Part shown: positions 7,447 through 64,000 of the stretch, piece after piece
How positions within the stretch are numbered: position 1 is the first letter of the stretch
How the letters are laid out: the number at the start of each line of letters is the position of its first letter
From: Parcubacteria group bacterium Gr01-1014_3
GTDB lineage: Bacteria > Patescibacteriota > Minisyncoccia > UBA6257 > WO2-44-18
Length of the DNA: 64,000 bases
Reading direction: 5' to 3'
Assembly: GCA_007376445.1 (NCBI GenBank)
Contig: VMGF01000001.1
Coordinates: 316,203-380,202, forward strand
Program-made: the position numbers and the translations under genes
The notes under the pieces: model-generated
What the model was told of the DNA's origin: nothing
What the model saw: only the letters and a program-made list of their open reading frames with translations
Database searches by the model: none

Positions 7447-7555
7447 AAGTCATACTATATATCCGCTCTTTGAAAGCTTGGTTTTCTGACAGTACTGCGC
7501 TGTCTGACAAGCTTTATTTTTTTCATCCGCGCATACCGGATGAAAGGAGGTTTAT

Positions 7556-23814: not shown

Positions 23815-23874
23815 CGCCGTTGGCGGGGCATTGATTTTCCAGCCAATCGCTTCGCTCTTGGGAAAAATCTAATG

Positions 23875-23955
23875 TGCCCAGGGCGGGAGTTGAACCCGCA
23901 CGCCTTTCGGCATACGCACCTCAAGCGTACGCGGCTGCCGTTACGCCACCTGGGC
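23875..23955 (-). tRNA. tRNA-Leu(GAG), type II with long variable arm
   Basis: The reverse complement is GCCCAGG-TG-GCG...CGC-G-TACGC-TTGAGGT-GCGTA-var arm-GCGGG-TTCAACT-CCCGC-CCTGGGC-A. The anticodon loop TTGAGGT gives anticodon GAG. The discriminator is A. Confidence 0.8.
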
Positions 23956-24615
23956 CTATATTATTCCTTGCTTGCCTATTATAGCCAAAGTCCGCTTAAT
24001 TTTCAAATATTTACGCGAGAGATGGGTCGAATGATTTTTATAATAAATTTTTGGCAATAATTTTAAAGATTCCGATTTAGCGTATTTTAAGGCCCGGGCA
24101 GAATTGTTAACACTTTTAGTATAGTGGCCGGTTATTTTTAGATGGTTAAAAATTTGTTTTTGTAGCCAATCAAGGTGCCTTTTGCTCGCAGAAATAAAAC
24201 AAACATAAAACATAAAGCTAGATTTCCAGCGGGGATCCCAATAGGAGTAGAATGTGCCATCGCCATCAAAATGCCCACGAAGGAAGTCCCAGAAATATTT
24301 AACAGGTATGTCTAACTCGCCAAGAGTTTTTGATTTGTTAGGAATCAGTCCTATACCAAGTAGGAACTTGTAGAAATTCACATCACCGAATTGTAGCCGG
24401 GTGACTGTTTTGTGTTTATGCCCGCTCCATTTTTTGCTAATTTTATTTTTGATATTTAAGCACTTTTTAAAATTTTCCAATTGTTCTAAGTCCTGTGACG
24501 TAAAATCAAAATGTCGGCCATCAGGCGACAGATTTCCATCGGTCGTGATTAACCCGATCGCATAGGCGAATTCCGGCGACCATTTAATTTTCACTTTGTT
24601 TTGAGGTTTAGCCAT
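23956..24615 (-). CDS. LAGLIDADG homing endonuclease (double-motif, free-standing)
   Basis: It has two LAGLIDADG motifs, FAYAIGLITTDGNL and FLRGHFDGDGTF, about 100 aa apart in 219 aa. Its stop codon directly abuts the 5' end of tRNA-Leu(GAG) on the same strand. Confidence 0.85.
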   Translation of the reverse strand: MAKPQNKVKIKWSPEFAYAIGLITTDGNLSPDGRHFDFTSQDLEQLENFKKCLNIKNKISKKWSGHKHKTVTRLQFGDVNFYKFLLGIGLIPNKSKTLGELDIPVKYFWDFLRGHFDGDGTFYSYWDPRWKSSFMFYVCFISASKRHLDWLQKQIFNHLKITGHYTKSVNNSARALKYAKSESLKLLPKIYYKNHSTHLSRKYLKIKRTLAIIGKQGII

Positions 24616-44072: not shown

Positions 44073-45533
44073 TTGACAATAGGAGGACCCAGAATGATCG
44101 TAGGACTGCTGCTCGTTATGAGTGTTGTGGCGACGCTTTTGCTATTCTTTTTGCTTCCCCGGACGGCATGGTTTCGGCGTATGCGCGCGCATTGGCTTGT
44201 ATTCCGCCTGGCGTGGACTGTACATAAAATGAAAGAAGTCGTCGACAATTATGACTCCCCAAAATCAAAGCTGAAAAGAGCTCGTGAAGCAGTTGAAGTT
44301 TTACGAGCCGGTTTCTGGGTGAATCCCATGGGTGACAATATCTACTTGGATTCAGGCGAATACTCCGGAATAGCCGGACGACTAAGTGACATTGTCGAGG
44401 CACTGGAAGCCAATTCTTCATATGAGCAAATTGGCACCACGAAAGAAGAGGTCATTGGTTTTAGGAATGGTAACGCCCACAAGGCTTCCGCGCGGCTTCA
44501 GGTTGACCTGTTTCGGAATCTTAAACAAGAACCTCGTATTCATTGTATTACCAAGCTTGCAGAAGACGCCGGCTTCACTCTTGACGAAATCGGCACGAGC
44601 GTAAGAGAACTCGAATCGCTCCAGAGAGAACATGATCGTCTACTACGGGTAGACGAAGTGCAAGGATTTAGAGAGTGGGCTACGGGTAAATCGGATTTCC
44701 GGCGAGCCCCCGACGAGTTCGAGAAGCGAATTTCTGATCTTTTGTCTGGGAAGCATTACGCCGGTAGATTCACTTATGAAGAGATCGGCACCAGCGAGCA
44801 GGAGTATCTGGAAATTATGCGCCTTGCTCGGCGTCGCGAAGTGATTTTCTGGATCGATTATTTTAAGAATAAGACTGATAAAGGCGAAACCGATAACTCA
44901 TTCGCCCGAAAAGAGATCAGGAAGTCTTTGAAGAAATCGGGATTGGCATTGAGCGATTTCGGCATCACCGCACTTGACTTGGACGAAATCGAACGACGCG
45001 CCTATATTAACAAGGCCAAGGATTCACTGAAAGAACTTAAGACGCCGGGTGAGGGTTGGTTTTACTCAGGACCTCTTAATACGAATTATTCCAATGTCCG
45101 ATTCTATAAGCCCGCGCTTTTGGGGTGCATTCCCGGAGATCCTCTGGTCTTTGTAAAAGAAATTGAGAAAAATCTGGCGACCGCAAAGAGCACGCTATCC
45201 GATATTGGGACGAACGAGTCGGAAATGAAAGTTTTTGTGCGCGCTGGCCATCTTGCTTCTGTTAAGTTTCTTTTGAAAGAGCTTGAAGACGTCTCGCAAA
45301 CTCCCAGACGAACCAGAATCGAACGAGTAGCGAGTATGCTTGGACCTAAAGCAATGATCATGGATGATCCAAGCAGCCCAATTGATCGTACGACTCTCGA
45401 GGACCCATATCCGATCGATCGCGATATTCAAGCGATTGAATATCATCTCAATGGAGCGGGAATCGGACTCGAAGAAATAGGAAGTTCTCAGGAGAAGCTT
45501 CAGGAACTGAAAGCTATTATCGAGGCACGGTAA
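44073..45533 (+). CDS. novel repeat protein: N-terminal TM plus six ~60-70 aa repeats each carrying an (E/D)-I-G-T-S-x-x-E motif
   Basis: The repeat hits are YEQIGTTKEEV, LDEIGTSVRELESL, YEEIGTSEQEYLEI, LSDFGITALDLDEI, LSDIGTNESEMKVF and LEEIGSSQEKLQEL. A strong promoter (TTGACG N17 TATAAA) and SD aggagga lie upstream. It sits immediately after the tRNA-Cys/tRNA-Leu pair. Confidence 0.5.
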   Translation: MTIGGPRMIVGLLLVMSVVATLLLFFLLPRTAWFRRMRAHWLVFRLAWTVHKMKEVVDNYDSPKSKLKRAREAVEVLRAGFWVNPMGDNIYLDSGEYSGIAGRLSDIVEALEANSSYEQIGTTKEEVIGFRNGNAHKASARLQVDLFRNLKQEPRIHCITKLAEDAGFTLDEIGTSVRELESLQREHDRLLRVDEVQGFREWATGKSDFRRAPDEFEKRISDLLSGKHYAGRFTYEEIGTSEQEYLEIMRLARRREVIFWIDYFKNKTDKGETDNSFARKEIRKSLKKSGLALSDFGITALDLDEIERRAYINKAKDSLKELKTPGEGWFYSGPLNTNYSNVRFYKPALLGCIPGDPLVFVKEIEKNLATAKSTLSDIGTNESEMKVFVRAGHLASVKFLLKELEDVSQTPRRTRIERVASMLGPKAMIMDDPSSPIDRTTLEDPYPIDRDIQAIEYHLNGAGIGLEEIGSSQEKLQELKAIIEAR

Positions 45534-51729: not shown

Positions 51730-52770
51730 ATGCAGCGAAAAATCATCATCGGTATTTTGGTTATTATCGGGATAGCTTTACTTTTCTGGTTCGTGTCAAA
51801 ACCGGCGGCTCGGACCGTGGCTTTCCATCAGTATTTTATTGAGAACCGATATTTCGCGCCGGATCCGACCAAATTAGATTTGGAGAATATGGAAGCGGTG
51901 TTCCAGCATGTTTTTCTCGCGCTGGATTCAGCCGTAATGGTTTATCCCACGGAAAATTATTATTATTTCGTGCTGAATGTGTCCTCCGAAGGAGGATCGG
52001 CCTCCGGCGGAGATGGAAAGCCCATTCGACAGGCTCAGGGCAAGCCGATCTGGGGGAATTTGCATCTGGGCCCGGAGTCGCGCGACGCCGGGTTGATAGA
52101 TTTTGCTTACTGGGAATTCAAGGACCAGCCACGGCTGGCAAGTGCGCCTGATTTAGAAAATGATCGTTCGGTGAAATACCGCCAGTTCGGAAAAGCCGAT
52201 GGCCTGGTCATTAAAAAATTAACCGGTCTTCAATACCAGATTTCATATCGCGGGAAAACGGTTCTTTTTTCCATGAACCATCTCCCCCAAACACCGCCGA
52301 AGAATTTTCCTTTAAGGCCAGGCGAAGTTTTCACGCAGAAAACCTTTGATGAATCGGGATACAGCTTTTTTCTGATCAGAAATATGATGCCGCCAGCTTT
52401 TTCTTTCGTGCTTAATGATGAAGTTGACCTGCCCGAACCGCTGACCCCCATTCATAAAAATATTTGGATCGGGAAAAAATCCGGATTCGTATTTTATGAA
52501 GATCCAGAGGATCATCGCAAGACCTTGATCGGCATCAGCCAGGTAAATGCCAGTAAAAATAACTATTATGACGGCCCATTTGATCAGCTGGCGGATAATT
52601 ACGTGAAAGGGGATGAATTTAAGGACGCGATCTTGGCTGTTTATCCGTTACTGGCCGGCAAGATCGATAAGTATGGGCAGTTTTTAGACCGCGCGGGCGC
52701 CCGTTTGGCGATCGCTCCCTATCAAACCTATGAAAAGCTTGAGGATCTATATGATATAATTAAAAAATGA
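51730..52770 (+). CDS. hypothetical membrane-anchored protein
   Basis: It has an N-terminal TM and no recognisable motifs. Confidence 0.4.
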   Translation: MQRKIIIGILVIIGIALLFWFVSKPAARTVAFHQYFIENRYFAPDPTKLDLENMEAVFQHVFLALDSAVMVYPTENYYYFVLNVSSEGGSASGGDGKPIRQAQGKPIWGNLHLGPESRDAGLIDFAYWEFKDQPRLASAPDLENDRSVKYRQFGKADGLVIKKLTGLQYQISYRGKTVLFSMNHLPQTPPKNFPLRPGEVFTQKTFDESGYSFFLIRNMMPPAFSFVLNDEVDLPEPLTPIHKNIWIGKKSGFVFYEDPEDHRKTLIGISQVNASKNNYYDGPFDQLADNYVKGDEFKDAILAVYPLLAGKIDKYGQFLDRAGARLAIAPYQTYEKLEDLYDIIKK

Positions 52771-53111
52771 TTGAAGAAGATAAAAAGAAGAAAAAGCTCC
52801 GGCTTATCGTCTGGGCTCTGACCACCTCATTTGTTTTATTGGTAATTTGCGTTTTCACGGCGCTAGGTTTGAATCCATTTTATCCACTAGGTACTCCGAA
52901 GGGTTATATTCCGACCGTTACTTTGGCCCTGGACCGTTCCATTTTTGGACAGGAGCCGTTGGTTTTGGCGAGCGTGAGTTTGCCGATGATGGTACCACCG
53001 CTTCCGACCACGCTGGCTTTCCCAATGCCGAAACTGGAAGCCGAACTTAATTTAGATAAGAAATTTTCCCCGGTTATCACTCCAACTGTTACTTATAAAC
53101 CAGCTTATTAA
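52767..53111 (+). CDS. hypothetical small membrane protein
   Basis: It has an N-terminal TM. It overlaps the upstream stop and abuts the 53113 gene, consistent with an operon with the surface protein. Confidence 0.35.
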   Translation: MIEEDKKKKKLRLIVWALTTSFVLLVICVFTALGLNPFYPLGTPKGYIPTVTLALDRSIFGQEPLVLASVSLPMMVPPLPTTLAFPMPKLEAELNLDKKFSPVITPTVTYKPAY

Positions 53112-53112
53112 A

Positions 53113-55560
53113 ATGGCCGATCTGAATCCAGCAAAACCAAAAACTCCGGACCAGTCCGCCTCTGACCGATTGGTTAAAAAAGACAATCGCAGGCTCACCT
53201 GGACGATAGTTGGGTTAATTACCGTAGTCACGCTTCTGCTTTTATGTATTTTACCGGGCAGTCCGGCGCTTGCCGTTCTTTTGAAATTGCCGGAAAAAGC
53301 CCAGCCAGTGATTACTAAGCTTGAGTCAATCTCTTTTGATCCAGTTGGCCCGTCTTCCGGTTCCGGCGGCGGATCTTCCAGCGTCGAGTTTCCAGTCGGG
53401 TCTTCCATTATAGTTAATGTTCCGCCCGATTTGACTAGGCCTCGACCCACGCCAACTCCTCCTCGCCGTTGGCCTGACTGTGTTCGTCCGGTTATCGGCA
53501 TCACCACGGCTACCACCGAAATTGAAGAATGTCCGGATTCCAGTATTCCAAAACCACCGCCACCGCCACCAACTCCAGTACCGGGTGAACCGAAGAAGCC
53601 AGCGGTCTTTGATTTCGGAGACGCGCCGGATAAGCCGAAAGGCGGTTTCCCATCATTACTATCCAGCAGCGGAGCCAGGCACTTTGACGTGAGCCGGTTT
53701 TATTTGGGCAAACGCGTGGATGTTGAGGGAGATTCTAAGCAGGTAGATGCCGATAGTGCCACTCCGCCAGCCGGTGTCGGTCCTGACGATGGTTTGAATA
53801 TAACCCTAAGTCTTGGCGTGGGCGCCGCGGGTACGGCTCTTGTAGATGGCATCGCGGAAATTCACAATAATAATTGGCCGGAAGAAAAACCGATCTATTT
53901 AAATGCCTTATATGATTTCAATAACAATCTTCAATGGGACATTCCAGGAGAGCACGTAGTTACCGATTATGAATTACACATTCCGCCAGGCGAGAGCGTG
54001 TACGGCAATATTATTTCCTTAAGCGCGAATAGATTAAATTGGCTCCGGGCCACGGTCTCAGAAATTCCACTTGGACTCGGCTATAACGGTTCCTGGTCAA
54101 AGGCGTTTGATTTTGGTGAAACTGAAGATTATTTCAAGCCGGAAATTTATCCTATCCATATAGTCAAAGGTTCGCACTTCGTCTTTACGTCGGAGGATAG
54201 AGAGCACAAGTGGGGTCCTTCGCAGATACATATAACTGGACCTACATACGGAGTTCCGGTAGAGACAGGGGGAGGTAGGCCAAAAGATCCCGGCCCAGCC
54301 ACGATTGATATGACCAAGCCGACTCCAGCCAAGCCAGGAACCGATGTTCCGACCTTTGATCCACGGCTGTTTACCCATGAAGGGGCAACGACGCGTCTGA
54401 CTCCGAGAAAACCAGGGTCAAACGTTGATCCGAACCCGACTTCTTTAATCATTACCTTACCGACGCAGCGGGGTGGATTATCGGTGGTGAATATATTTCC
54501 GATTCCAGATTTCTTAACCAGCGCCATTACTCAAATTCAAATTCGCAATCTCGAGCGGACATTGTTTCATCTGGAGCAGTTAGCGGATCGCCCGATTACT
54601 AGAATCCGAACAGTTCAGAAAGAGATCGAGGTACTCAAAGAAGTTATCAAGCTTGTGCCGACCCCGACTACACCGATCGGCGGTATCACCGCGCCGGCGC
54701 AGTATAAAATTGAGGTAATCGGTATCGATACCGGCAAAGGAACAATGGACATTCAGGCCTATGGCTTTGTATCCGGCAATAATGAGGTTGAAATATTGGA
54801 ATACTCTGCCAACGGACAATTACTTAATAAAACCAGCAAGCCATTTAATACCGCGAGTTTCCGGTTTGAATTTAAGAGTTTCTCAGGAGCCGTCTCGATA
54901 GTAATGCGATTGGTTCATAATGGCGATGTAGTGCCGGGTACTAGCATTAATGTTCCGTCCGTGGCTACGATAACCGGGGGACTGAGCGGCGCTGGGCCAC
55001 AGTGCCAATACACGATCTCGCTGGACGATACTCTTGCTGATGGGACGGCGAATACCGCTTACAGCCAGACAGTTACCGCGACCGGTGGCAGTGGCTCATA
55101 TACCTACGCCGTTACGGCTGGTTCTTTACCAACAGGCCTGACCCTTGCTTCTAACGGAACAATTACCGGCACGCCGACTACCGCCGCGACCTACGCATTT
55201 ACGATCACCGCGACGGATGTTAGCGGCTGTACCGCAAGCCGGGCATATTCTGTGACTATTGCCAGCGCTTGCCCAACCGTTTCTTTCTCTCCTACCGACT
55301 TCGTAGATGGTCAAGATGGGCGTGCAAGCGATACGAGCGTAGCTGGTACCTTGACTTCCAGTACCGGAACAGGAAGTAACCAGGCTTTGAATATGCCTCC
55401 TGGGGTTGATGTGAATATATCTGGATCTGGCACGGGTGTTATAACCTGGAACATACTTGGTACGCCTATAGGCGTGGGCGATTACTCCTTTACCGCTAGG
55501 ATAGCAGTTGCTGGTTGTTCTAATTTAGATACACCATTTACTTGGACGGTTACGCCTTAA
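53113..55560 (+). CDS. large surface protein with GEVED-like domain and C-terminal He_PIG (putative Ig) domain
   Basis: It has an N-terminal TM and a Pro-rich linker. The block FDFGDAPDKPKGGFPSLLSSSGARH...DVEGDSKQVDAD...GETEDYF is GEVED-like. The C-terminus YSQTVTATGGSGSYTYAVTAGSLPTGLTLASNGTITGTPT matches He_PIG. A terminator ccagctcctttattggagctgg lies at about 55583-55610. Confidence 0.6.
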   Translation: MADLNPAKPKTPDQSASDRLVKKDNRRLTWTIVGLITVVTLLLLCILPGSPALAVLLKLPEKAQPVITKLESISFDPVGPSSGSGGGSSSVEFPVGSSIIVNVPPDLTRPRPTPTPPRRWPDCVRPVIGITTATTEIEECPDSSIPKPPPPPPTPVPGEPKKPAVFDFGDAPDKPKGGFPSLLSSSGARHFDVSRFYLGKRVDVEGDSKQVDADSATPPAGVGPDDGLNITLSLGVGAAGTALVDGIAEIHNNNWPEEKPIYLNALYDFNNNLQWDIPGEHVVTDYELHIPPGESVYGNIISLSANRLNWLRATVSEIPLGLGYNGSWSKAFDFGETEDYFKPEIYPIHIVKGSHFVFTSEDREHKWGPSQIHITGPTYGVPVETGGGRPKDPGPATIDMTKPTPAKPGTDVPTFDPRLFTHEGATTRLTPRKPGSNVDPNPTSLIITLPTQRGGLSVVNIFPIPDFLTSAITQIQIRNLERTLFHLEQLADRPITRIRTVQKEIEVLKEVIKLVPTPTTPIGGITAPAQYKIEVIGIDTGKGTMDIQAYGFVSGNNEVEILEYSANGQLLNKTSKPFNTASFRFEFKSFSGAVSIVMRLVHNGDVVPGTSINVPSVATITGGLSGAGPQCQYTISLDDTLADGTANTAYSQTVTATGGSGSYTYAVTAGSLPTGLTLASNGTITGTPTTAATYAFTITATDVSGCTASRAYSVTIASACPTVSFSPTDFVDGQDGRASDTSVAGTLTSSTGTGSNQALNMPPGVDVNISGSGTGVITWNILGTPIGVGDYSFTARIAVAGCSNLDTPFTWTVTP

Positions 55561-55627: not shown

Positions 55628-55746
55628 ATCCCGTTAGAAGCAACTGGTCAATAATTATGAAAAACGATCTCATTTTTACGATAACCCTAGAATCAAATAG
55701 TCGGGCACTTTACGGTCGTCTAATGACGACCTGCTTCTAACGGGAT
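55628..55746. repeat. Family B inverted-repeat element, copy 2 (119 nt, inverted relative to copy 1)
   Basis: atcccgttagaagcaac ... cggtcgtctaatgacgacctgcttctaacgggat. The last AT of the right terminus plus a flanking G forms the start codon of the 55745 gene. Confidence 0.85.
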
Positions 55747-58700
55747 GAAGAAGATCCTCTTTTTAGCCACTGGCGCGGTTTTAATCGTTTTACTAGCAAT
55801 GATCGCTTACGGCTATGCTTTTTATCGTAGCCTGAATCCATTTATAGTTTTTGATCCGGGATTTTATTTTACTCCACAGCTCGAGTTGGTTTTAAAAACC
55901 AAGGGCCAGCCTTCCGCGGCGGGTCAACAGGCGAGCGTTTTAGAAACGCTCACGCTTCCGATCGTCTGGCCACCGATTACCGGAAGCTCGGTATTTAATT
56001 TCACTCTACCCAGCCAGGTTTCCGCTGCCTTGGAGTCTAACGGCCAGCTTGTTAACCCATATTTAGTTTTGAGTTTTGCGTTAGTTCCTAGCGAGGGCGT
56101 TTCTTCGGTGCCACCTCTCACGGTGGGCGAATTGTCATTTGAGCCAATCGTTCCACCAGCCGCGACGGGGGAGTTCGAGTTGATTTTGCCGATCACAAGC
56201 GATCAAGAAAATGTTAGCGTGGTTCTACCGCCGAGCCTGATCGCCGCCTACAATAATCTTGCTAACGAAATTATCGCCGCCGAGGAAGCTGGTGGAGCAG
56301 AAGAGTCTTCGGCGACTGGTGGTTCGTCTGTTTCCAGCGGAGGAACGGCACCGTCTAGTGGGGCTGGTTCGCCAGCTTCTGGCGCAGGCTTACCCGCCCC
56401 TGGCGTTGGCTCCACGGGTTCAGCTCCATCATCTGGCGGATCACCGTCTTCTGGTAGTGGTACAGGAGCGCCTGGCGGTTCTAGCGTGCCTGCTTCTGGT
56501 TCTGGTTTTCCCACCTCTGGCTCGGGCTTTCCTGCCTCTGGCACTGGTTTACCAGCACCATCGAATGTGATTACTGAGACCGCGTCCGAACCAGGAATTA
56601 TCGAATCTTTTATCAACGCCATCGACGATGCCGTGGTCGCCATCAATGAATTTTTTACCGAACCATTCACTTCGATATTTATTGGAGAGCCAACTGACAC
56701 ACCTTCCACGCCATCGACTATCGTTTCATCATCAGGAACTGGCGGTGCGACATCGGCAGGTTCTGTTCCCGGCACTACGGTGCTCGCGCCTGCTGGCAGT
56801 ACTGCTACTTCTCCGGTTACATCAGGCACTTCTGGTTCCACGGCTACTGGCGGAACAGGACCGACGGCTCCCACGTCAGGCACCACCGCGACTTCGCCAT
56901 CCGGCATTTCTGCGACCGCTCCTGCTACATCAGTTTCAGCCCCGGCAACTGGCGATTCCACAGGATTTTTTGATAATGTTTTCAGCGCGATTGATACCGC
57001 AGTTACTTCAATCACAGGCTTCTTTATTGATCCGATAGTGACGACGGTTACTTCGATTTCGGATTCTATCAATATCATTGCCACAAATCTGCAACCCACC
57101 GTGTATCGGGATCTTGGTGACGCGCCCGCACCAGGGAATGGCGGGAATTATCCGTCGTTACTCGTAGATAACGGTTCTCGCCACAAAATTACCTTCCCAT
57201 TGTATTTAGGTTACTTGGTAGATGTCGAGCCAGACTCGCTTCAGGTAGATGACGATAATTTCGATGATGGCTTTGAGTCAACCACTTGGCTGATTAAAAT
57301 TTCCAATAACAGCTGGACCGAAGGGCCGATCTATCTCAATATGCTGATTGATCTTAATCACGACGGCGATTGGGACGAATCCGATACGGAGTGGGCTGTG
57401 AAAAATCAGCAGGTCATAGTTCCTGCCGGTACTTCCAAGACAGTCTTGCCACTCATCTCCAATCTGCTGGTTGGTTTGAATTTCCCGATCACGGATACTT
57501 GGATTCGCCTGACAGTTACTGCCACGCCGGTGGACGCTCCATATATCGGCACCGGAAGTTTCATGTATGGTGAGTCGGAAGATTATTTTGTGACGATCAA
57601 AACTCCACCACCACCAGCTAAAGCGTCTGTTTATAACAGCGGTGTGCCAGCAGTAAAACTGCCCGGAAAATTGGTTGGAGATATTGTTTCTGAGGTTGTT
57701 ATTGTAACTTCACCGACTGCCGATCCGGGCGGCTCTCCGGCCCCTAAGCCATCGGGAGTGGATACGGTGAATCAGTATGACCATCAGATCGAAGGATCTT
57801 TCTGGCATAGTTATCAATCAACTTACTACGAATGGAAGAAGCGTACCGAGGTTGAGACAGTCTCTGCCGGCAAAGCACCAGGCGTTGCGCCAGCTCCGGC
57901 TCCAGCCCCCACTCCATCAACGCCAGGACCGAGTACTGGTGGAACAACATCAGCGGATCGTCCACCATACGATCATCAAACCGAAGGATCTTTCTGGCAT
58001 AGCTACAGCGATTCATACTATCGTTGGAAAAATACGATTGAAGTTCCGGTTTCTACTGGCAAGCCTCCGGTTTCCGCGCCAACTCCAGCGCCAACTCCAA
58101 CTCCAACTCCAGCCCCAACTCCAGCGCCAACGCCAACTCCCGGCTCGGTCCGGCCGGATGGTTTTAAATATACCTACCACGTCTTCAACTCCAGCGATTA
58201 TGTTCCAGGTGTTTATCATATTGGCGAGACCACTGACATTAAATACACCGATCCGGGCATTGAGAAAGATGGTTATAGAGTTACCCCATTACCGTTCTAC
58301 TGCGCCGATTCTTCAAGCGATTCAGACAACTGCACCCCACCGAAGCCAATAGCCGTCGAAGATCTACCTTCAGTCCCAAGCGTGGATACATCAAAGCCGT
58401 TAATCACGCCGGTTACAGTTGTTATTGACGAAATTCCTGGCGGAGCCGGTAGCGATGTTTTGACTGCCCCGTCAGTATTCCAGAGGATTTTTGATAGCAT
58501 TACGGAATTTTTAAGCGTGGAGCCAGCCACACCGTCGATCCATGACACCATCCTTTCAATTCGTATTAAGAATCTTCGCGATACCGCCACGCAACCAGCG
58601 CCATTACCTTCTCCGATCGTACCTATTGAACCAACGCCCGGTCCTAAAACACCATTCTCGCCAACCGAACCACCGTATGTAGTCCCTCCCGTAGTTATTC

Positions 58701-60223
58701 CAAGTGAACCGGGTTTCTTTGATAGATTAAAAGAGCTCTTCAGTTTCGGGCCGGAAATAATTCCAAGCAAAGACTACGATCTTCCAGGCGCTATTGATGA
58801 GGAAATGACTCGTACTATCTATACGTCTCCAGATAAGTTGAAATGTTCCGGTGGAGATTGTCCGGGAGGCGAGCAGTCTGTCATACAACAATCGCCGGCG
58901 GAATCACAACCAATTCATCAAGTAACATTGAGTGGATTCGAAAGAGCCAAGGAGGGCGTAACCGAGGTATTTAATAGCGCCGTCGAGGGAGCTCAAAAAC
59001 TCAGTGATGTGATTTTCCAGGATATTAGAATAACTCTCAATCCGGAAATAGCCCCTCTTACCCAAGAAAACCTTGACGCGCAACGATCCTTATTCTCAAC
59101 CGAGTCGGTTTCAGAAGTCACCGTGTTCGGTACCGACTATTCCACCGTGGTTCAGCGGGAAATTCCCACGATCAGCGTAACCGCCGAGACACCATTGGTG
59201 GTCCAGAGAATCGTTCAGCAGGATGCGATTAATAAACTGGAGGGTATTATCACTCAGCCGACCACGGTGATAATTTCCCCGATTGAGCAAACATTCCTGC
59301 GATTACAGCAAAGCCTGCAAACTCTTAATGAGAGCGTGCAGAAATTCGCGGACCGACAGAATTTAGTTGTTCAGCAGCCGTTGGTGTTGCCTACGGACGC
59401 GGCTCAAATCACGCCGGATAAGATTCTTGTTGATGGAAAATTGGTTGATCAGTCGCTCGCGGAAATTGCCGCGAAACCAAATCAATGCTGGCTTTCCTCC
59501 AGCAACGACGGAACAAAAGTCCTCTTAAACATCGAGGTTAACGGCACAACTCCGACTGGCCAAATCGCTAGCGCGGACGCGGTAGCCGAAGGATATGATG
59601 ACTTTAATAACGTGGTATTTAGGGAGGTTATTGGCGGAAGACCGATTTCCGGCACCGCTTCGGCCGATCTATTGGTTAGTTATTACAGCCAGCCTAGAGA
59701 CTCCGCGCGTATCAGTAATAGAGTGCTATCGCTTGTTCCGACTCCGACATTCTTCGGCGGCTCTGGTATACCGGCTTATAAAAGAGTTTCCGTTAAACTG
59801 ATCGGCAGGAACGGAACAAACTGTGCCGATTCAAATTCTAATCAGGGAGCTTCCGGCGCCTCGTCAATCCAAAATCCGGCCGGAGGAGCCGGACAAACGG
59901 TTCTTTCCATCACACCCGCGGCGACTTGCGGAGCGGTAACGGTATTGCCAGCCACTTTACCGGATGGCTCCGAGACCCCGCCGCTACTATACAACCAGAC
60001 TGTTTCAGCTTCAAACGCTGGAGGTTCAACCTTTACCTTCGCGGTTACCGCCGGTTCATTGCCGAACGGCCTGTCTTTGGACGCAAACACTGGAGTGATT
60101 ACCGGCACGCCGACTAGAGCTGATACATTCAACTTCACAATCACCGCGACACCGGTTGGCGACTGCTCGGCTACCACTGGCTCCAGGGCTTATACGATAG
60201 TTGTGCTTGGAGGTGGCGCGTAA
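55745..60223 (+). CDS. giant surface protein (1492 aa) paralogous to the 53113 gene: TM, S/G/T/P low-complexity linkers, GEVED-like domain, internal tandem repeats, C-terminal He_PIG domain
   Basis: It has YRDLGDAPAPGNGGNYPSLLVDNGSRH...DVEPDSLQVDDD...GESEDYF. A duplicated module YDHQ(I/T)EGSFWHSY..YY.WK occurs twice. A PTPAPTPTPTPAPTPAPTPTP tract lies at 58078-58140. The C-terminus is YNQTVSASNAGGSTFTFAVTAGSLPNGLSLDANTGVITGTPT. Confidence 0.6.
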   Translation: MKKILFLATGAVLIVLLAMIAYGYAFYRSLNPFIVFDPGFYFTPQLELVLKTKGQPSAAGQQASVLETLTLPIVWPPITGSSVFNFTLPSQVSAALESNGQLVNPYLVLSFALVPSEGVSSVPPLTVGELSFEPIVPPAATGEFELILPITSDQENVSVVLPPSLIAAYNNLANEIIAAEEAGGAEESSATGGSSVSSGGTAPSSGAGSPASGAGLPAPGVGSTGSAPSSGGSPSSGSGTGAPGGSSVPASGSGFPTSGSGFPASGTGLPAPSNVITETASEPGIIESFINAIDDAVVAINEFFTEPFTSIFIGEPTDTPSTPSTIVSSSGTGGATSAGSVPGTTVLAPAGSTATSPVTSGTSGSTATGGTGPTAPTSGTTATSPSGISATAPATSVSAPATGDSTGFFDNVFSAIDTAVTSITGFFIDPIVTTVTSISDSINIIATNLQPTVYRDLGDAPAPGNGGNYPSLLVDNGSRHKITFPLYLGYLVDVEPDSLQVDDDNFDDGFESTTWLIKISNNSWTEGPIYLNMLIDLNHDGDWDESDTEWAVKNQQVIVPAGTSKTVLPLISNLLVGLNFPITDTWIRLTVTATPVDAPYIGTGSFMYGESEDYFVTIKTPPPPAKASVYNSGVPAVKLPGKLVGDIVSEVVIVTSPTADPGGSPAPKPSGVDTVNQYDHQIEGSFWHSYQSTYYEWKKRTEVETVSAGKAPGVAPAPAPAPTPSTPGPSTGGTTSADRPPYDHQTEGSFWHSYSDSYYRWKNTIEVPVSTGKPPVSAPTPAPTPTPTPAPTPAPTPTPGSVRPDGFKYTYHVFNSSDYVPGVYHIGETTDIKYTDPGIEKDGYRVTPLPFYCADSSSDSDNCTPPKPIAVEDLPSVPSVDTSKPLITPVTVVIDEIPGGAGSDVLTAPSVFQRIFDSITEFLSVEPATPSIHDTILSIRIKNLRDTATQPAPLPSPIVPIEPTPGPKTPFSPTEPPYVVPPVVIPSEPGFFDRLKELFSFGPEIIPSKDYDLPGAIDEEMTRTIYTSPDKLKCSGGDCPGGEQSVIQQSPAESQPIHQVTLSGFERAKEGVTEVFNSAVEGAQKLSDVIFQDIRITLNPEIAPLTQENLDAQRSLFSTESVSEVTVFGTDYSTVVQREIPTISVTAETPLVVQRIVQQDAINKLEGIITQPTTVIISPIEQTFLRLQQSLQTLNESVQKFADRQNLVVQQPLVLPTDAAQITPDKILVDGKLVDQSLAEIAAKPNQCWLSSSNDGTKVLLNIEVNGTTPTGQIASADAVAEGYDDFNNVVFREVIGGRPISGTASADLLVSYYSQPRDSARISNRVLSLVPTPTFFGGSGIPAYKRVSVKLIGRNGTNCADSNSNQGASGASSIQNPAGGAGQTVLSITPAATCGAVTVLPATLPDGSETPPLLYNQTVSASNAGGSTFTFAVTAGSLPNGLSLDANTGVITGTPTRADTFNFTITATPVGDCSATTGSRAYTIVVLGGGA

Positions 60224-60342
60224 CAATAAAAAGCACCCTTCCACGAGGGCGGGGTGTTTTTGATTGTGGACGGGGGGAGACTTGCCGCCCGAAACTTCGG
60301 GCGAGCCTCGCTCAGCTTGGCTGAGCGGGAACCCCACCTATG

Positions 60343-60423
60343 TGCTCCCGACAGGATTCGAACCTGTAACCCTTGCGGGACGTGGTCCTAAGCCACGCGT
60401 GTCTGCCGTTCCACCACGGGAGC
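60343..60423 (-). tRNA. tRNA-Leu(TAG), type II
   Basis: The reverse complement is GCTCCCG-TG-GTG...-CGTGG-CTTAGGA-CCACG-long arm-ACAGG-TTCGAAT-CCTGT-CGGGAGC-A. Two short GC hairpins follow its 3' end at 60285-60335. Confidence 0.8.
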
Positions 60424-60548: not shown

Positions 60549-61487
60549 ATGAAAGTCATCTTCGGTCTGTTGGTGTTGGCTGCCTTGGTGGTGGCTACGG
60601 TGCTGGCGGCGGAGACCTGGCCTTTGTACTACGTTGTGCCGTCAGCGGCGCTCGTGGTCGTCTATCTCTTGGGATGTATCGTCAATGTTCAGCCCAAGAC
60701 GGCGGTCGTGATCGTCAATCCGTTCGGCGGTATGCGCGAGGCGAGGCAGGGCTGGCAGCTGGTTCTCCGGCCATTCGAGTGGTTGGGCAAGATTAACGGC
60801 GCCGAAGTGTTCAGTCTTCAGAAGCGGGTGCTCGACGTCAAATTGGATGTTGAGTCCGAAGATGAGGAAGTGCTCACACTGGACCTCTCGATCAACTTTC
60901 GGATCGTGGCTCTTATCAAGTTCTTGGAATTCCCGGAAGCGGAATTCAAGGAAAGCCTCAGTGAGCATGCCAAGGCTTTGGCGAGCGAGCGGGCGCGTCT
61001 TTGTAAGGACCGGGACGAGATCATGGACAAGAAGGCGGACATCGAGGATTTCATTCACTTCGGCTTCCAGCGGAGGATGTTCAGCGGAAATCTTTTGCTG
61101 GAGGAGTATCACGGCATCAAAGTTGATACCGTGGTGATCAGCGATCCCGAGCTTCCCGAAGACCTGAAGAAGGCCGAGGTGGAGCGCGAGATCGCCGAGA
61201 AGCGCGCAGAAGCCAAGGTGCATGAGGCGAAGGGCCTTGCTAGAGCGGCGAAGGCGCTTCAGGGCAGAACCCCGAAGGGTCAGCAGCCGGAGATGAAGAG
61301 AGAGAAGGCCATGGAGCTCGAGCTGATCCGGTCCGGGGCGATTAAGAAGGAGAACAAGGAGGTCGAGATCGGGCCGCATTTGGCCGAAGCAATCGACTCG
61401 CTCCCGAAGGGCGTTCTCGCATTCTTCGGTTCTCTGTTCATGCCCAAGGGTGGGAAGCGTAAGGGTAAGAAGAAGGGAGGTCCGTAA
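60549..61487 (+). CDS. SPFH/band-7 (stomatin/prohibitin-like) domain membrane protein, GC-rich
   Basis: It has two N-terminal TMs. An SPFH-like core VVIVNPFGGMREARQGWQLVLRPFEWLGKINGAEVFSLQ...LTLDLSINFRIVA is followed by a coiled-coil AEKRAEAKVHEAKGLARAAKAL. GC is about 60 percent. Confidence 0.45.
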   Translation: MKVIFGLLVLAALVVATVLAAETWPLYYVVPSAALVVVYLLGCIVNVQPKTAVVIVNPFGGMREARQGWQLVLRPFEWLGKINGAEVFSLQKRVLDVKLDVESEDEEVLTLDLSINFRIVALIKFLEFPEAEFKESLSEHAKALASERARLCKDRDEIMDKKADIEDFIHFGFQRRMFSGNLLLEEYHGIKVDTVVISDPELPEDLKKAEVEREIAEKRAEAKVHEAKGLARAAKALQGRTPKGQQPEMKREKAMELELIRSGAIKKENKEVEIGPHLAEAIDSLPKGVLAFFGSLFMPKGGKRKGKKKGGP

Positions 61488-61984
61488 TGGCCAATGTGCC
61501 AAGTCCGATCCCGGTACCTGTCACGGCGGCGGGCAATCCCGCTCCGGCGACCGAGTTCTACAAGAGCAAGGCGCTCAAGGTGGTGGCAGTTCTCGCGGTT
61601 CTTTCGCTGGCGATCGCAATGATCGTCGGCCACTTCAGTGGCAAGTCCACTGCCGAAGCCGGAGCAGGCGGAGCAGGTTCACCCGCCAAGGGCGGGCAGA
61701 TCAGCTACAGCTCCGAGGCTCCGATTCGTTTCGGTCCTTCGAAGAGGATTGAGATCGACCTCAAGGTGGATGAGTGGAGCCCACTTATCATCGCGCCTGA
61801 ACGTTGCAAGAGCGTTATGGGAGCGGTGAATCCACCGGCTGGTTACTTCATTCAATTTCCCGACGGGAAAGAGATCGAAGTTACACCACACGGGAGGGAG
61901 GGATTTCTTCCGGCGAAACGCGGAGAGTATCGTTTCCGCGGCGTGCAACCCGGCCAAAGGCTGGTGATGCACGTGACGTACTAG
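61487..61984 (+). CDS. hypothetical membrane protein (possible SPFH partner), GC-rich
   Basis: Its ATG overlaps the upstream stop (TAATG). It has an N-terminal TM and a beta-rich C-terminus. A strong terminator gcgcccctgctctgttttacagagcaggggcttttttatt lies at 61988-62028. Confidence 0.4.
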   Translation: MANVPSPIPVPVTAAGNPAPATEFYKSKALKVVAVLAVLSLAIAMIVGHFSGKSTAEAGAGGAGSPAKGGQISYSSEAPIRFGPSKRIEIDLKVDEWSPLIIAPERCKSVMGAVNPPAGYFIQFPDGKEIEVTPHGREGFLPAKRGEYRFRGVQPGQRLVMHVTY

Positions 61985-62076
61985 CAGCGCCCCTGCTCTG
62001 TTTTACAGAGCAGGGGCTTTTTTATTCCAAATCAAAAACCGCCTTAAGGCGGTTTTTGAGAAAATAGCTATTGATC

Positions 62077-62433
62077 TTAAAGTATTGATTTCACAATAAA
62101 GACTACGGCACGAGACAATAGCGCTACTGCCACGCCGACAGCGGCAAAGATGATAACGCTCTTGGCTTTATTGATATTCTCTTCACTACCTCCAGCAGTC
62201 AAGTAGAGATAAGCCGCGTATAAAGTCATTACCGTCGCTAATAATATCAAACCAGTGAACAAATAATTGATCAATGTTTCGATGATTCTAATAACATCTT
62301 GGACGTTCTTAACGGCCGGTTCTGGAGGAGTTTGGATACCACTCTGGGCAAGCGAGAGCGATGGTGAAATGGCCATCAGGGACGCTATGCCAATTTTTTT
62401 AAGATTTAATTTCATATATTGAATAATGTACAC
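62077..62433 (-). CDS. TrbC/VirB2-like T4SS-pilin family small protein (paralog 1 of 3)
   Basis: It has a signal peptide and two TM helices, with the shared motif LYAAYLYLTAGGSEENINKAKSVIIFAAVGVAVAL. Confidence 0.5.
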   Translation of the reverse strand: MYIIQYMKLNLKKIGIASLMAISPSLSLAQSGIQTPPEPAVKNVQDVIRIIETLINYLFTGLILLATVMTLYAAYLYLTAGGSEENINKAKSVIIFAAVGVAVALLSRAVVFIVKSIL

Positions 62434-62464
62434 GACCTTTTTGGGATATTTATATTATACCATA

Positions 62465-62851
62465 TCATTTCGCCTTATATCCTATCAAATCAGCCACTAT
62501 CAGTGAGATACCATTGGATACTAATAAAATAGCGAAACCGATAGCGGCGTAAAGAATGGTTTTTTTGCCAGTTTCAATCTTGCCCGGATCTCCGGCGGAC
62601 GACATTATCATGAAAGCTCCATATAGCACCATGATCGTGACAATCGGAATGGCGATCACAAGCAAGCCCCGGATAATTTTATCGAGAAGTTCGGTGATAC
62701 TGCCTACCGATAGAGGATTCGGAAGCTCCGAGGCATCGGTGCTATCAGACCCCGGATCTCTAAATGGTTGAGCGGTGGCCAGAGAAGGAATCAAGAATAA
62801 AGAATTAAGAATTATGAATGAAGCGAAGATTATGATGAAAGATTTGGTCAT
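62465..62851 (-). CDS. TrbC/VirB2-like T4SS-pilin family small protein (paralog 2 of 3)
   Basis: It has a signal peptide ending ATAQP and the motif LYGAFMIMSSAGDPGKIETGKKTILYAAIGFAILL. Confidence 0.5.
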   Translation of the reverse strand: MTKSFIIIFASFIILNSLFLIPSLATAQPFRDPGSDSTDASELPNPLSVGSITELLDKIIRGLLVIAIPIVTIMVLYGAFMIMSSAGDPGKIETGKKTILYAAIGFAILLVSNGISLIVADLIGYKAK

Positions 62852-62904
62852 TTATTTATTGTATCTTTTTTTGATTCTAGATTCTAGCTATTAGATACTG
62901 GCTT

Positions 62905-63330
62905 CTATTGAATATATGTCGTGGTGGTCGGTATTAGGTTAATGATTGCTTTGATAATTAACCAAGAACCCATGGCGATAGCTACACCGATAACCGCCGC
63001 GTAGATGATCTTTTTACCGCTATCTACTTTCCCGCTATTTCCACCGGCGGTCATTATCTCGAAAGCACCATACACGATAAATCCGGTGGCGAGCGGGATG
63101 CTGATACCAACCGCGTAGTTAATGAGGTTTTTTAGGAATTTGATGAAAGCGGGGATGTTGCAGGATTTGGGGTCGCTAGGCGGAAGCGCCGGATCGCAAT
63201 CGATAGTACTGCTTAGGGAGGGTTGGGCGTGGGCCGGCAAGGCAGTTAGAAGGTATAAGTTAAAAGTTATAAGGCTAAGAAAAAGCAGAGACACAGCAAA
63301 AATGGTTTTTAGATTTAAATATTTAAACAT
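62905..63330 (-). CDS. TrbC/VirB2-like T4SS-pilin family small protein (paralog 3 of 3)
   Basis: It has a signal peptide ending AHAQP and the motif VYGAFEIMTAGGNSGKVDSGKKIIYAAVIGVAIAM. Confidence 0.5.
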   Translation of the reverse strand: MFKYLNLKTIFAVSLLFLSLITFNLYLLTALPAHAQPSLSSTIDCDPALPPSDPKSCNIPAFIKFLKNLINYAVGISIPLATGFIVYGAFEIMTAGGNSGKVDSGKKIIYAAVIGVAIAMGSWLIIKAIINLIPTTTTYIQ

Positions 63331-63382
63331 AAGAGTATTTTAGCATTTAACTTCGAACTTTAAACTTACCAACTCATAACTT

Positions 63383-64000
63383 CTACCTGGTTCTCCGTTC
63401 CATCAGCGCGTTGATCTCGTCTTCGGATTGCTGGAGGGCTTGCTGGGCGGGGAGGCGGCCGTTAATGACTGATTCGATCATTTTAGAGAAGGAATTTTCC
63501 ACGGCAACATTATTAATCTGCGGCCAGGAGCGGGCAGTCAGAGATTGCTTGGCGAAGATCTCGTAATTTGGATCGGCCAGATTAGCCGCGATCATGCTTC
63601 GCAAAGCAGGTGGGCGCTTGCTCTCGATAAGATATTTATTGGATTCGGCCGGATTGGTAGTCAAGAAACTGATGAAATCCCAGGCCGCGGTCGGATTCAA
63701 GCTCTTATTCGTAACGGCGAGGCCCCAGTAATTCGGGAAGCTGATGCTCTGCTGGGCATTTTTTGGCTGAGGTACAGGGGCGATCTTGAAATTCAGGAAT
63801 GGATTTTTTTCTTTCAAAGCTTCGCGGAGGTAGGAGTAGTTGATGGTCATCGCGAGATCACCCGCGGCAAAGGCGTCCACGGAATAAACCTGAGAATCGC
63901 TCCAGGTGAAGTTTTTGTGGGCTGGGTTGGCAAAGTCGGTATAGAAGGAGAGCGCGTTCAATCCCTGATCAGAGCTGTAGGTCGCGCGTGAGAAGTCCGG
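63383..64000 (-). CDS. ABC transporter extracellular solute-binding protein, C-terminal part (N-terminus beyond the window end)
   Basis: It has SBP family-1-like C-terminal blocks NYWGLAVTNKS...AWDFISFLT. The reading frame stays open to the window edge. Confidence 0.5.
   Translation of the reverse strand, partial: PDFSRATYSSDQGLNALSFYTDFANPAHKNFTWSDSQVYSVDAFAAGDLAMTINYSYLREALKEKNPFLNFKIAPVPQPKNAQQSISFPNYWGLAVTNKSLNPTAAWDFISFLTTNPAESNKYLIESKRPPALRSMIAANLADPNYEIFAKQSLTARSWPQINNVAVENSFSKMIESVINGRLPAQQALQQSEDEINALMERRTR

What the first reader, a model, noticed from the sequence alone, without database searches (positions are those of the whole stretch)
62077..63330. Array of three paralogous TrbC/VirB2-like pilin-family small proteins
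Three consecutive minus-strand genes of 118, 128 and 141 aa share one architecture. Each has a signal peptide ending A(Q/H)AQP, then hydrophobic helix 1, then the motif Y-(G/A)-A-(Y/F)-x-I/L-(M/L)-(T/S)-AGG-x(5-7)-K-x-(I/V)-x-(Y/F)-AA-(I/V)-G-x-A-(I/V), then helix 2. This matches the T4SS pilin / TrbC-VirB2 fold family that is expanded in CPR genomes. A tandem triplication suggests antigenic or functional diversification of a surface filament subunit.
Basis: partly seen in the sequence, partly recalled or inferred. Interest (0 to 1): 0.6.

Follow-up and report, generated by a model that had tools for sequence, protein, structure and literature searches.

The report
Patescibacterial VirB2-like pilin gene trio
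Three neighbouring small genes in this ultra-small groundwater bacterium (Parcubacteria/Patescibacteria) encode secreted two-helix proteins of the type IV secretion pilin family. This kind of gene array is already described in these bacteria, so the finding is correct but not new.

Summary
The three minus-strand ORFs (141, 128 and 118 aa) sit exactly where stated. All three match Pfam PF18895 (T4SS_pilin), two of them above the gathering score. Each has a signal peptide ending A-x-A|Q and a confidently predicted helical hairpin.

The window comes from the MAG 'Parcubacteria group bacterium Gr01-1014_3'. A 2025 survey lists this genome as VirB4-positive. That survey, and a 2023 Tn-seq study, already describe VirB2-like pilin arrays of 2-11 divergent genes in Patescibacteria; the array is essential in S. 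epibionticum.

What I add:
- The trio is not a recent triplication. It is a conserved ordered set of three ancient subfamilies: O3 (Cys pair), then O2 (NPL motif), then O1 (variable copy number). For 276 of 297 related pilins the best match lies in another genome.
- No T4SS machinery gene was recognised in the 64-kb window, and no VirB4 was found near about 160 related loci.
- The array sits directly downstream of a co-oriented, membrane-anchored sugar-type solute-binding protein gene. That gene is followed by pilins in 60 of 64 independent loci.

The function (pilus, conduit or membrane ring) is inferred, not shown. This is a new member of a known kind, of modest interest.

The parts
63383..64000 (-). 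3' part of a CUT1-type solute-binding protein gene (SBP_bac_1/SBP_bac_8). The full protein is 433 aa, and orthologues have an N-terminal membrane anchor. The window end cuts the gene. It is the conserved, co-oriented gene directly upstream of the array.
   Evidence: Pfam SBP_bac_1/8. Full gene seen in L001:1545-2846. Best solved relatives are sugar ABC-transporter binding proteins, e.g. 5ci5 at E=2.6e-17. Upstream of the array in 67 of 80 genome loci and on the same strand in 64 of 64. Followed by pilin ORFs in 60 of 64 independent metagenome loci.
63337..63364 (-). Promoter-like site in the SBP-O3 spacer: TTTAAA, 16 nt, then an extended -10 TGcTAAAAT ending 6 nt before the O3 ATG.
   Evidence: Consensus scan and sequence reading. 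Function not tested.
62905..63330 (-). O3-type pilin-like protein, 141 aa. Signal peptide with AHA|Q site (mature about 106 aa). N-terminal segment with the conserved Cys pair C45/C57, then a helical hairpin.
   Evidence: PF18895 at 30.5 bits, above the gathering score. AF2 helices H59-93/H99-132. C45 and C57 nearly invariant in 36 orthologues, and 52 of 52 O3-type proteins have at least 2 Cys. hhalign against genuine VirB2/TrbC gives 76% probability, E=2.2e-5.
62465..62851 (-). O2-type pilin-like protein, 128 aa. Signal peptide with ATA|Q site (mature about 101 aa), NPL motif, helical hairpin. It gives the strongest PF18895 match of the three, and its subfamily has the highest mean identity across genomes (40% against 36-39%).
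   Evidence: PF18895 at 38.2 bits. NF045849 Mbov_0395 pilin-like conjugal transfer protein at E=3.6e-7, below its cutoff. AF2 pLDDT above 90 over H52-83/H89-122. NPL motif in 59 of 95 O2-type orthologues. 100% identical to an NCBI protein of Parcubacteria group bacterium Gr01-1014_3.
62077..62433 (-). O1-type pilin-like protein, 118 aa from the GTG at 62433 or, more likely, 112 aa from the ATG at 62415. SLA|Q site (mature about 89 aa), helical hairpin. This subfamily's copy number varies from 1 to 5 in relatives.
   Evidence: PF18895 at 24.9-25.0 bits, just below the gathering score of 26.6. 36 of 36 orthologues match PF18895. Positions +1 to +4 of related arrays are O1-type.
62034..62057 (-). 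Intrinsic-terminator-like hairpin about 20 nt after the O1 stop codon: AAAAACCGCC-TTAA-GGCGGTTTTT.
   Evidence: Read directly from the sequence. The automatic scan did not list it, because the T-run lies within the stem.

Best explanation
The three genes encode paralogous VirB2/TrbC-like pilin subunits (Pfam PF18895) of the Patescibacterial, monoderm-type type IV secretion system.

Proposed mechanism:
1. Each precursor is exported by Sec and cut by signal peptidase I at A-x-A|Q, leaving an N-terminal Gln.
2. The mature 89-106-aa protein sits in the membrane as a two-helix hairpin. Its short, Lys-rich loop faces the cytoplasm and both termini face outside.
3. A VirB4-powered machine encoded elsewhere in the genome takes subunits from this membrane pool. 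It assembles them into a surface filament or conduit used in contact with a host cell.
4. The three genes are ancient, non-redundant subfamilies kept in a fixed order (O3 with a Cys pair, O2 with an NPL motif, O1 with variable copy number). They therefore most likely co-assemble or play distinct roles, such as major versus minor or initiating subunits, and are not interchangeable antigenic variants.

The genes appear to form one transcription unit with, or just behind, a membrane-anchored sugar-binding protein gene.

Shown here: family membership, architecture, conserved order and gene neighbourhood. Inferred: processing, polymerisation, dependence on VirB4 and biological role.
For: - PF18895 matches for all three proteins, and for 36 of 36 orthologues of both the O3 and O1 types, with additional PF04956 TrbC/VirB2 matches in 11 and 7 of them.
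- hhalign of O3-type against genuine plasmid VirB2/TrbC: 76% probability, E=2.2e-5, across the hairpin. O2-type aligns in register, including the A-x-A-Q site, at E=1.5e-3.
- Genuine VirB2 proteins share the invariant A-x-A-Q.
- AF2 hairpins have pLDDT above 90. In both fold searches the archaeal conjugative pilin 8dfu had the highest match probability (0.84, 0.72; TM 0.65-0.67).
- The same family forms the essential six-gene array SEML1_0014-0019 beside VirB4, PrgI and VirB6 in S. epibionticum.
- Arrays of 2-11 such genes are documented across Patescibacteria.
- This genome is listed as VirB4-positive.
- Positional orthology: the best hit lies in another genome for 276 of 297 pilins, and O3-O2-O1 is the commonest pattern.
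- Operon signals: 31-53 bp spacers, a terminator after O1 and promoter-like boxes.
Against: - None of the 53 window ORFs scanned against Pfam is a T4SS machinery gene; about a dozen gave no match and a few small ORFs were not scanned. No VirB4 lies within 6-10 kb of about 160 related arrays, and only one locus has a T4CP-like gene.
- The window proteins do not hit PF04956 themselves. A family profile finds no solved pilin by sequence.
- Fold matches are not significant (E>0.5), because a helical hairpin is too simple a fold.
- The presence of VirB4 in this genome rests on a published table alone; I could not see the gene.
- Two of five related genomes carrying the array are listed as VirB4-negative, though both are drafts.
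- No T4SS pilus has been observed in any Patescibacterium.
Confidence: 0.65

Rival explanations
1. The hairpin proteins belong to the T4SS but do not form an extended pilus. They assemble into a membrane-embedded ring or short channel, comparable to an ATP-synthase c-ring or the non-pilus role of VirB2 in substrate transfer. The three subfamilies would occupy defined positions in that ring.
For: - Many relatives are single polypeptides with one signal peptide and 2-8 fused hairpin modules. Examples are P0140 (606 aa, 7 modules) and P0141 (820 aa, 8 modules). This is easy to reconcile with a fixed-stoichiometry bundle or ring.
- ATP-synthase subunit c appears among the fold matches. It is also the ECOD assignment given for SEML1_0018.
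- Monoderm T4SSs normally lack pili.
- The fixed gene order suggests a defined hetero-assembly.
Against: - The fold matches are not significant.
- In conjugative pilins both termini lie on the same side, so fused modules could also enter a filament (my own knowledge).
- The long, variable, Gly-rich extracellular N-terminal segments suggest surface exposure.
Confidence: 0.17
2. The trio is functionally tied to the upstream membrane-anchored sugar-binding protein and not to the T4SS. It would be a T4SS-independent envelope module, for example a membrane scaffold or partner for an orphan SBP that captures host-derived glycans.
For: - The SBP gene is co-oriented and directly upstream in 67 of 80 loci, with a median gap of 9-18 bp and many 4-bp overlaps.
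- From the SBP side, 60 of 64 independent loci are followed by pilins.
- The link persists in this genome although the usual upstream gyrA is absent.
- No ABC permease or ATPase and no VirB4 was found among the recurrent or large neighbouring gene families.
Against: - gyrA, which is clearly unrelated in function, is also tightly syntenic (median gap 42 bp; directly upstream in 71 of 102 loci). Compact inherited gene order therefore explains much of the linkage.
- About 10 arrays lack the SBP and have a methyltransferase or an unknown gene instead.
- The same protein family sits inside the T4SS cluster, without any SBP, in S. epibionticum.
- No SBP system is known that uses VirB2-like hairpins.
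Confidence: 0.1
3. One reading: a recent tandem triplication that supplies interchangeable antigenic or host-range variants of a single pilin.
For: - Paralogues within arrays are very divergent: 24-35% here, with a mean of 25% in the literature, where this idea is proposed by analogy with Bartonella and Anaplasma VirB2 paralogues.
- The copy number of the O1 type varies from 1 to 5, and 19 of 148 O1-type genes have their best hit in the same locus.
Against: - The best hit lies in another genome for 94 of 96 O2-type and 53 of 53 O3-type genes.
- The order O3-O2-O1 is conserved (34 loci show O3-O2-O1 or O3-O2-O1-O1).
- Each subfamily has its own hallmark: the Cys pair in O3 and NPL in O2.
- All six paralogues are individually essential in S. 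epibionticum, which argues against redundancy.
Confidence: 0.08

Closest known systems
VirB2-like pilin arrays of Patescibacteria (Quinonero-Coronel et al. 2025, PMC12102498): 441 arrays of 2-11 genes in 383 assemblies
   Same: Same Pfam family (PF18895/PF04956), same phylum, tandem co-oriented divergent paralogues (mean 25% identity). The source genome itself is in their dataset and is listed as VirB4-positive.
   Different: That study centred on virB4 neighbourhoods. It did not report, in the text I read, the fixed O3-O2-O1 subfamily order or the link to an SBP gene. This array is not near virB4.
Essential pilin array SEML1_0014-0019 of Southlakia epibionticum ML1 (Wang et al. 2023, PMC10633639)
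   Same: PF18895 proteins of 103-185 aa in a co-oriented tandem array. That array is the only experimental evidence (Tn-seq essentiality) for the family's importance.
   Different: That array has six genes and lies next to, and divergent from, the VirB4/PrgI/VirB6 cluster, with no SBP. It is in class Saccharimonadia, whereas this genome is in Paceibacteria.
Agrobacterium VirB2 / RP4 TrbC (PF04956), the conjugative and T-pilus major pilins
   Same: Long signal peptide ending A-x-A|Q, a mature product of about 70-100 aa, and two hydrophobic helices joined by a short loop containing a basic residue.
   Different: Sequence similarity is detectable only at profile level (76% probability for O3-type, weaker for the others). 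VirB2 and TrbC are diderm proteins encoded inside the virB/trb operon, present as one copy and cyclised head-to-tail (my own knowledge). Cyclisation cannot be tested here.
Archaeal Ced/Ted conjugation-like pilins (A. pernix pilus, PDB 8dfu)
   Same: A VirB2-like hairpin pilin working in a cell envelope without an outer membrane. It had the highest match probability in both fold searches (TM 0.65-0.67, rmsd about 3 A over 73 columns).
   Different: The matches are not statistically significant (E=1.2-2.6). There is no sequence similarity. It belongs to a DNA-import system with different partner proteins.
NCBIfam NF045849, Mbov_0395 family pilin-like conjugal transfer protein (Mycoplasma ICE)
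   Same: A monoderm, pilin-like two-helix protein. ORF2 matches it at E=3.6e-7 over 68 residues.
   Different: The score of 29.8 bits is below the family cutoff of 40. The other two proteins do not match meaningfully.

Membership tests
Pfam PF18895 T4SS_pilin | Whole-protein score at or above the gathering score (26.6 bits) | tested here: met
   ORF2 scores 38.2 bits and ORF3 30.5 bits, so both are met. ORF1 scores 24.9-25.0 bits (E=2e-5), just below, but 36 of 36 of its orthologues match at E<=0.01, the best at 2.2e-14.
Pfam PF18895 T4SS_pilin | Architecture: cleavable signal peptide, then two hydrophobic helices joined by a short polar loop | tested here: met
   Signal-peptidase -3/-1 sites AHA|Q, ATA|Q and SLA|Q were found with a heuristic, not with SignalP. 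AF2 hairpins have pLDDT above 90.
TrbC/VirB2 pilins (Pfam PF04956) | Detectable sequence or profile similarity to genuine VirB2/TrbC | tested here: inconclusive
   No PF04956 hit for the three window proteins, even at E<=10. 11 of 36 O3-type and 7 of 36 O1-type orthologues, and 6 of 19 O2 homologues, do hit it. hhalign against 7 real VirB2/TrbC proteins gives O3-type 76% (E=2.2e-5), O2-type 16% (E=1.5e-3) and no real alignment for O1-type.
TrbC/VirB2 pilins (Pfam PF04956) | Head-to-tail cyclisation or other maturation, and polymerisation into a pilus | not testable with these tools
   This needs mass spectrometry or cryo-EM. The only related fact is that the N-terminal Gln after the cleavage site is shared with VirB2.
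Patescibacterial T4SS (MPF-FATA-like) component | The genome encodes the signature ATPase VirB4 | not tested
   The only evidence is published: Table S1 of PMC12102498 lists GCA_007376445.1 as VirB4 'Yes'. A T4CP-based protein search gave more than 8000 hits, and the genome's own copy could not be picked out.
Patescibacterial T4SS (MPF-FATA-like) component | Physical linkage to virB4, virB6 or prgI | tested here: not met
   No T4SS machinery domain was found in the 53 window ORFs scanned; about a dozen gave no Pfam match and a few small ORFs were not scanned. No VirB4 lies within 6-10 kb of about 160 related arrays, and one locus has a T4CP-like gene. Linkage is not obligatory for the family: pilins are near virB4 in only 1135 of 1948 assemblies.
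Patescibacterial VirB2-like pilin array | At least 2 PF18895/PF04956 genes in tandem, or separated by one gene, with low mutual identity | tested here: met
   Three adjacent co-oriented genes at 24-35% identity. 3-6 such ORFs per locus is the rule in 80 related loci.

The most novel reading that the evidence does not exclude
In this Paceibacteria clade the VirB2-like proteins form a distinct module that is not linked to VirB4. It would be an operon of a membrane-anchored sugar-binding protein plus three obligately ordered hairpin subfamilies, fused into one 7-8-hairpin polypeptide in some relatives. These would co-assemble into a heteromeric filament or ring. The Cys-loop subunit (O3) would dock the SBP, coupling recognition or capture of host glycans to the T4SS-like conduit. 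That would give a first concrete handle on what the essential but functionally unknown Patescibacterial T4SS does.
Probability: 0.15. Interest if true: 0.65.

Novelty: new member of a known kind. Interest (0 to 1): 0.33.

Why it matters
The Patescibacterial T4SS and its pilin array are essential in the one species tested, yet a 2024 perspective calls the T4SS's role 'completely unknown'. This locus adds no new kind of system.

The comparative analysis does suggest three things that could guide experiments:
- The arrays are ordered sets of specialised subunits, not interchangeable variants.
- Some lineages fuse the subunits into a single polypeptide.
- In one large clade the array travels with a sugar-binding protein and not with the secretion ATPase.

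These points could inform hetero-oligomer modelling, SBP-pilin interaction tests and co-occurrence statistics.

Tried and rejected
- A family profile against PDB sequences found no pilin.
- tblastn of ORF2 against 72,556 plasmids found only two hits at E=1.
- I tried to reach the 400-kb NCBI contig to locate virB4. Only short Logan/ENA contigs were served.
- A T4CP-like protein from relative L073 was used to look for this genome's ATPase. It gave more than 8000 near-identical Paceibacteria hits, and the genome was not visible among them.
- Table S3 of the 2025 paper, which lists per-genome components, was truncated in the held copy.
It was rerun with a shallower permitted alignment.
- The RP4 and R388 accessions were not in the plasmid collection. 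I replaced them with Agrobacterium, Sinorhizobium, Sphingobium and other virB2 genes, located using a recalled VirB2 sequence only as a probe.
- I considered and rejected a recent triplication and a mobile-element or plasmid origin. The window is chromosomal, with aminoacyl-tRNA synthetases, TopA, IF-2, RelA and ParB.

Full report

Yes. The window has three adjacent minus-strand ORFs at exactly the stated coordinates: 62905-63330 (141 aa, called O3 here), 62465-62851 (128 aa, O2) and 62077-62433 (118 aa, O1). The spacers are 53 and 31 bp. The proteins are only 24-35% identical to one another.

An HMM built from O2 homologues picks out exactly these three among all window ORFs of at least 50 aa.

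The shared signal-peptide end is a -3/-1 site followed by Gln: AHA|Q, ATA|Q and SLA|Q. The literal 'A(Q/H)AQP' fits only O3. O1 more likely starts at the ATG at 62415, because 'MKLNLKK' fits the orthologue consensus.

**2. What are the proteins?**

- All three match Pfam PF18895 (T4SS_pilin) at 38.2, 30.5 and 24.9 bits, against a gathering score of 26.6.
- O2 also matches the Mycoplasma ICE pilin-like family NF045849 at E=3.6e-7, below that family's cutoff.
- AlphaFold2 gives a signal-peptide helix, a disordered linker and a two-helix hairpin with pLDDT above 90, for both O2 and O3.
- Fold searches are not significant, because the fold is too simple. Even so, the archaeal conjugative pilin 8dfu had the highest match probability in both searches.
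- A family profile finds no solved pilin by sequence.

To test the VirB2 link directly, I collected seven annotated virB2/trbC genes from plasmids.
- They share the invariant A-x-A-Q signal-peptide end.
- hhalign gives 76% probability (E=2.2e-5) for the O3-type alignment across the whole hairpin.
- It gives a weak but in-register alignment for the O2 type (E=1.5e-3), and nothing for the O1 type.
- Among orthologues, 36 of 36 O3-type and 36 of 36 O1-type proteins match PF18895. Of these, 11 and 7 respectively also match PF04956.

Membership in PF18895 is therefore solid. Remote homology to VirB2/TrbC is supported, but only at family level.

**3. Source and context**

O2 is 100% identical to a protein of the MAG 'Parcubacteria group bacterium Gr01-1014_3'.

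The window is ordinary chromosome. It carries LeuRS, MetRS, TopA, RelA/SpoT, IF-2, iPGM, DprA, ParB and seven tRNAs. None of the 53 ORFs scanned against Pfam is a T4SS ATPase or channel protein. About a dozen gave no match, and a few small ORFs were not scanned.

The genome (GCA_007376445.1, class Paceibacteria, 808 kb) is listed as VirB4-positive in Table S1 of Quinonero-Coronel et al. 2025. I could not confirm this independently.

**4. What is already known**

- Wang et al. 2023 found six essential PF18895 pilin genes (SEML1_0014-0019) beside the T4SS genes of S. epibionticum.
- Quinonero-Coronel et al. 2025 reported 441 arrays of 2-11 VirB2-like genes in 383 Patescibacteria assemblies. Mean identity within arrays was 25%. 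They suggested antigenic or host-range variation.
- A 2025 review highlights these as the only monoderm T4SSs with potential pili.
- The function of the system is called 'completely unknown'.

The finding is therefore a correct identification of a known kind of feature.

**5. What the comparative analysis adds**

A scan of species-representative genomes returned 80 loci, all from Patescibacteria. Having 3-6 co-oriented pilin-like ORFs per locus is the rule.

*Positional orthology*
- The gene upstream of the O2 orthologue is O3-like in 48 of 57 cases.
- The downstream genes are O1-like: 63 of 73 at position +1 and 44 of 46 at +2.
- Each window protein is 42-60% identical to its positional counterparts elsewhere, but only 30-35% identical to its own neighbours.
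- For 276 of 297 pilins the best hit lies in another genome.
- O3-O2-O1 is the commonest pattern (21 loci), followed by O3-O2-O1-O1 (13 loci).

*Subfamily hallmarks*
- O3: a nearly invariant Cys pair (C45 and C57 in the window protein). All 52 O3-type proteins have at least 2 Cys. Most add a CxxC and a C-terminal Cys, which the window's subclade lacks.
- O2: an NPL motif, in 59 of 95 proteins.

The trio is therefore an old, ordered set of specialised subunits and not a recent triplication. Only the O1 type shows lineage-specific amplification.

**6. Neighbourhood**

Related arrays sit in a housekeeping context. The order is GyrA, then a 431-aa SBP_bac_1/8 protein, then the pilins. A Band_7 gene often lies downstream.

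No VirB4 lies within 6-10 kb of about 160 loci. One locus has a T4CP-like gene and two have a PilB-like ATPase.

The SBP:
- is a CUT1-type sugar binder with an N-terminal membrane anchor;
- is co-oriented with the array in 64 of 64 loci, with a median gap of 9-18 bp and many 4-bp overlaps.

In an independent sample selected with the SBP as query, 60 of 64 loci with enough downstream sequence have pilin ORFs directly after the SBP gene. The window has the same arrangement, with the SBP stop codon 52 bp upstream of O3.

A control tempers this. GyrA to SBP is also tight (median 42 bp; GyrA directly upstream in 71 of 102 loci), so inherited compact gene order explains part of the linkage. About 10 arrays lack the SBP. 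I found no paper mentioning this linkage.

**7. Operon signals in the window**

- An extended -10 box (TGcTAAAAT) with an upstream TTTAAA lies in the SBP-O3 spacer and ends 6 nt before the O3 ATG.
- A TACAAT ends 6 nt before the O2 ATG.
- A TGgTATAAT lies 20 nt before the O1 GTG.
- A hairpin, AAAAACCGCC-TTAA-GGCGGTTTTT (62057-62034), follows the O1 stop codon.

None of these signals has been tested for function.

**8. Family size and fusions**

The O2-type profile finds 63,590 cluster representatives at E<=0.001. Many top hits are single polypeptides with one signal peptide and 2-8 fused hairpin modules, such as P0140 and P0141.

This suggests that different hairpins work side by side in fixed stoichiometry. 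It keeps open a membrane-ring or short-conduit alternative to a long pilus.

**9. Verdict**

The best explanation, at about 0.65 confidence, is that these are Sec-exported, signal-peptidase-processed VirB2-like subunits used by a VirB4-dependent machine encoded elsewhere, with three non-redundant roles.

The rivals are:
- a membrane ring or conduit instead of a pilus (0.17);
- an SBP-linked module independent of the T4SS (0.10);
- recent antigenic-variant copies (0.08).

Novelty: a new member of a known kind. Interest is modest. The SBP coupling, the fixed subunit order and the fused forms are the leads worth following.

Noticed in passing
P0140 (606 aa), P0141 (820 aa), P0149 (245 aa): Many relatives of the pilin family are single polypeptides with one N-terminal signal peptide followed by 2-8 tandem hairpin modules and no internal signal peptides. 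In effect they are a whole 'array' fused into one protein. I did not see this mentioned in the papers I read.
   Followed up: partly
window 63383-64000 (-) and L001:1545-2846; loci L003-L165: A membrane-anchored CUT1-type sugar-binding protein gene sits directly upstream of the pilin array in most relatives. It is followed by pilins in 60 of 64 independent loci. No ABC permease or ATPase was found among the neighbouring gene families examined.
   Followed up: yes
window 60549-61984 (+): A Band_7/SPFH gene (312 aa) overlaps (ATGA) a 165-aa single-TM protein with no Pfam match. GC here is 0.53-0.62, against about 0.40 in the adjacent pilin genes. The pair lies between tRNA-Leu(tag) at 60342-60423 and the array, convergent with it, and has its own strong terminator at 61989-62017. 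Band_7 genes recur downstream of arrays in relatives.
   Followed up: partly
window 53113-55560 and 55745-60223 (+): Two very large predicted surface proteins (815 and 1492 aa) carry He_PIG Ig-like and GEVED domains and long Ser/Gly/Thr/Pro-rich low-complexity stretches. They are candidate adhesins and lie 2-9 kb from the pilin array.
   Followed up: no
window 63337-63345, 62858-62863: The -10-like boxes upstream of O3 and O2 both end exactly 6 nt before the ATG, and no Shine-Dalgarno sequence is visible. This hints at leaderless or near-leaderless transcripts. Conservation in orthologues was not checked.
   Followed up: no
L073:18019-19362: A T4CP-like protein, named 'CxxC-x17-CxxC domain' or 'type IV secretion system DNA-binding domain' by sources, is extraordinarily conserved across Paceibacteria. 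There are more than 8000 hits, and the top 120 are at 68-99% identity. That is unusual for a conjugation-type coupling protein and suggests a housekeeping role.
   Followed up: no
L008:6551-7027 and 7027-8052 (similar pairs in L032, L044, L053, L054, L057, L061): In some relatives, two further PF18895 proteins (about 158 aa and about 341 aa, the latter with a long C-terminal extension) lie between the SBP gene and the canonical array.
   Followed up: partly
window 23956-24615 (-) next to tRNA-Leu 23874-23955; L001:1135-1494: A LAGLIDADG-domain ORF abuts a tRNA-Leu gene. Just beyond the window's right end, a 23S_rRNA_IVP-family gene replaces the gyrA that precedes the SBP gene in most relatives.
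   Followed up: no
window 44073-45533 (+), 51730-53111 (+): ORFs of 486, 346 and 114 aa have no Pfam match. The 486-aa ORF follows a tRNA-Cys/tRNA-Leu pair. The other two precede the giant surface proteins. They were not examined further.
   Followed up: no
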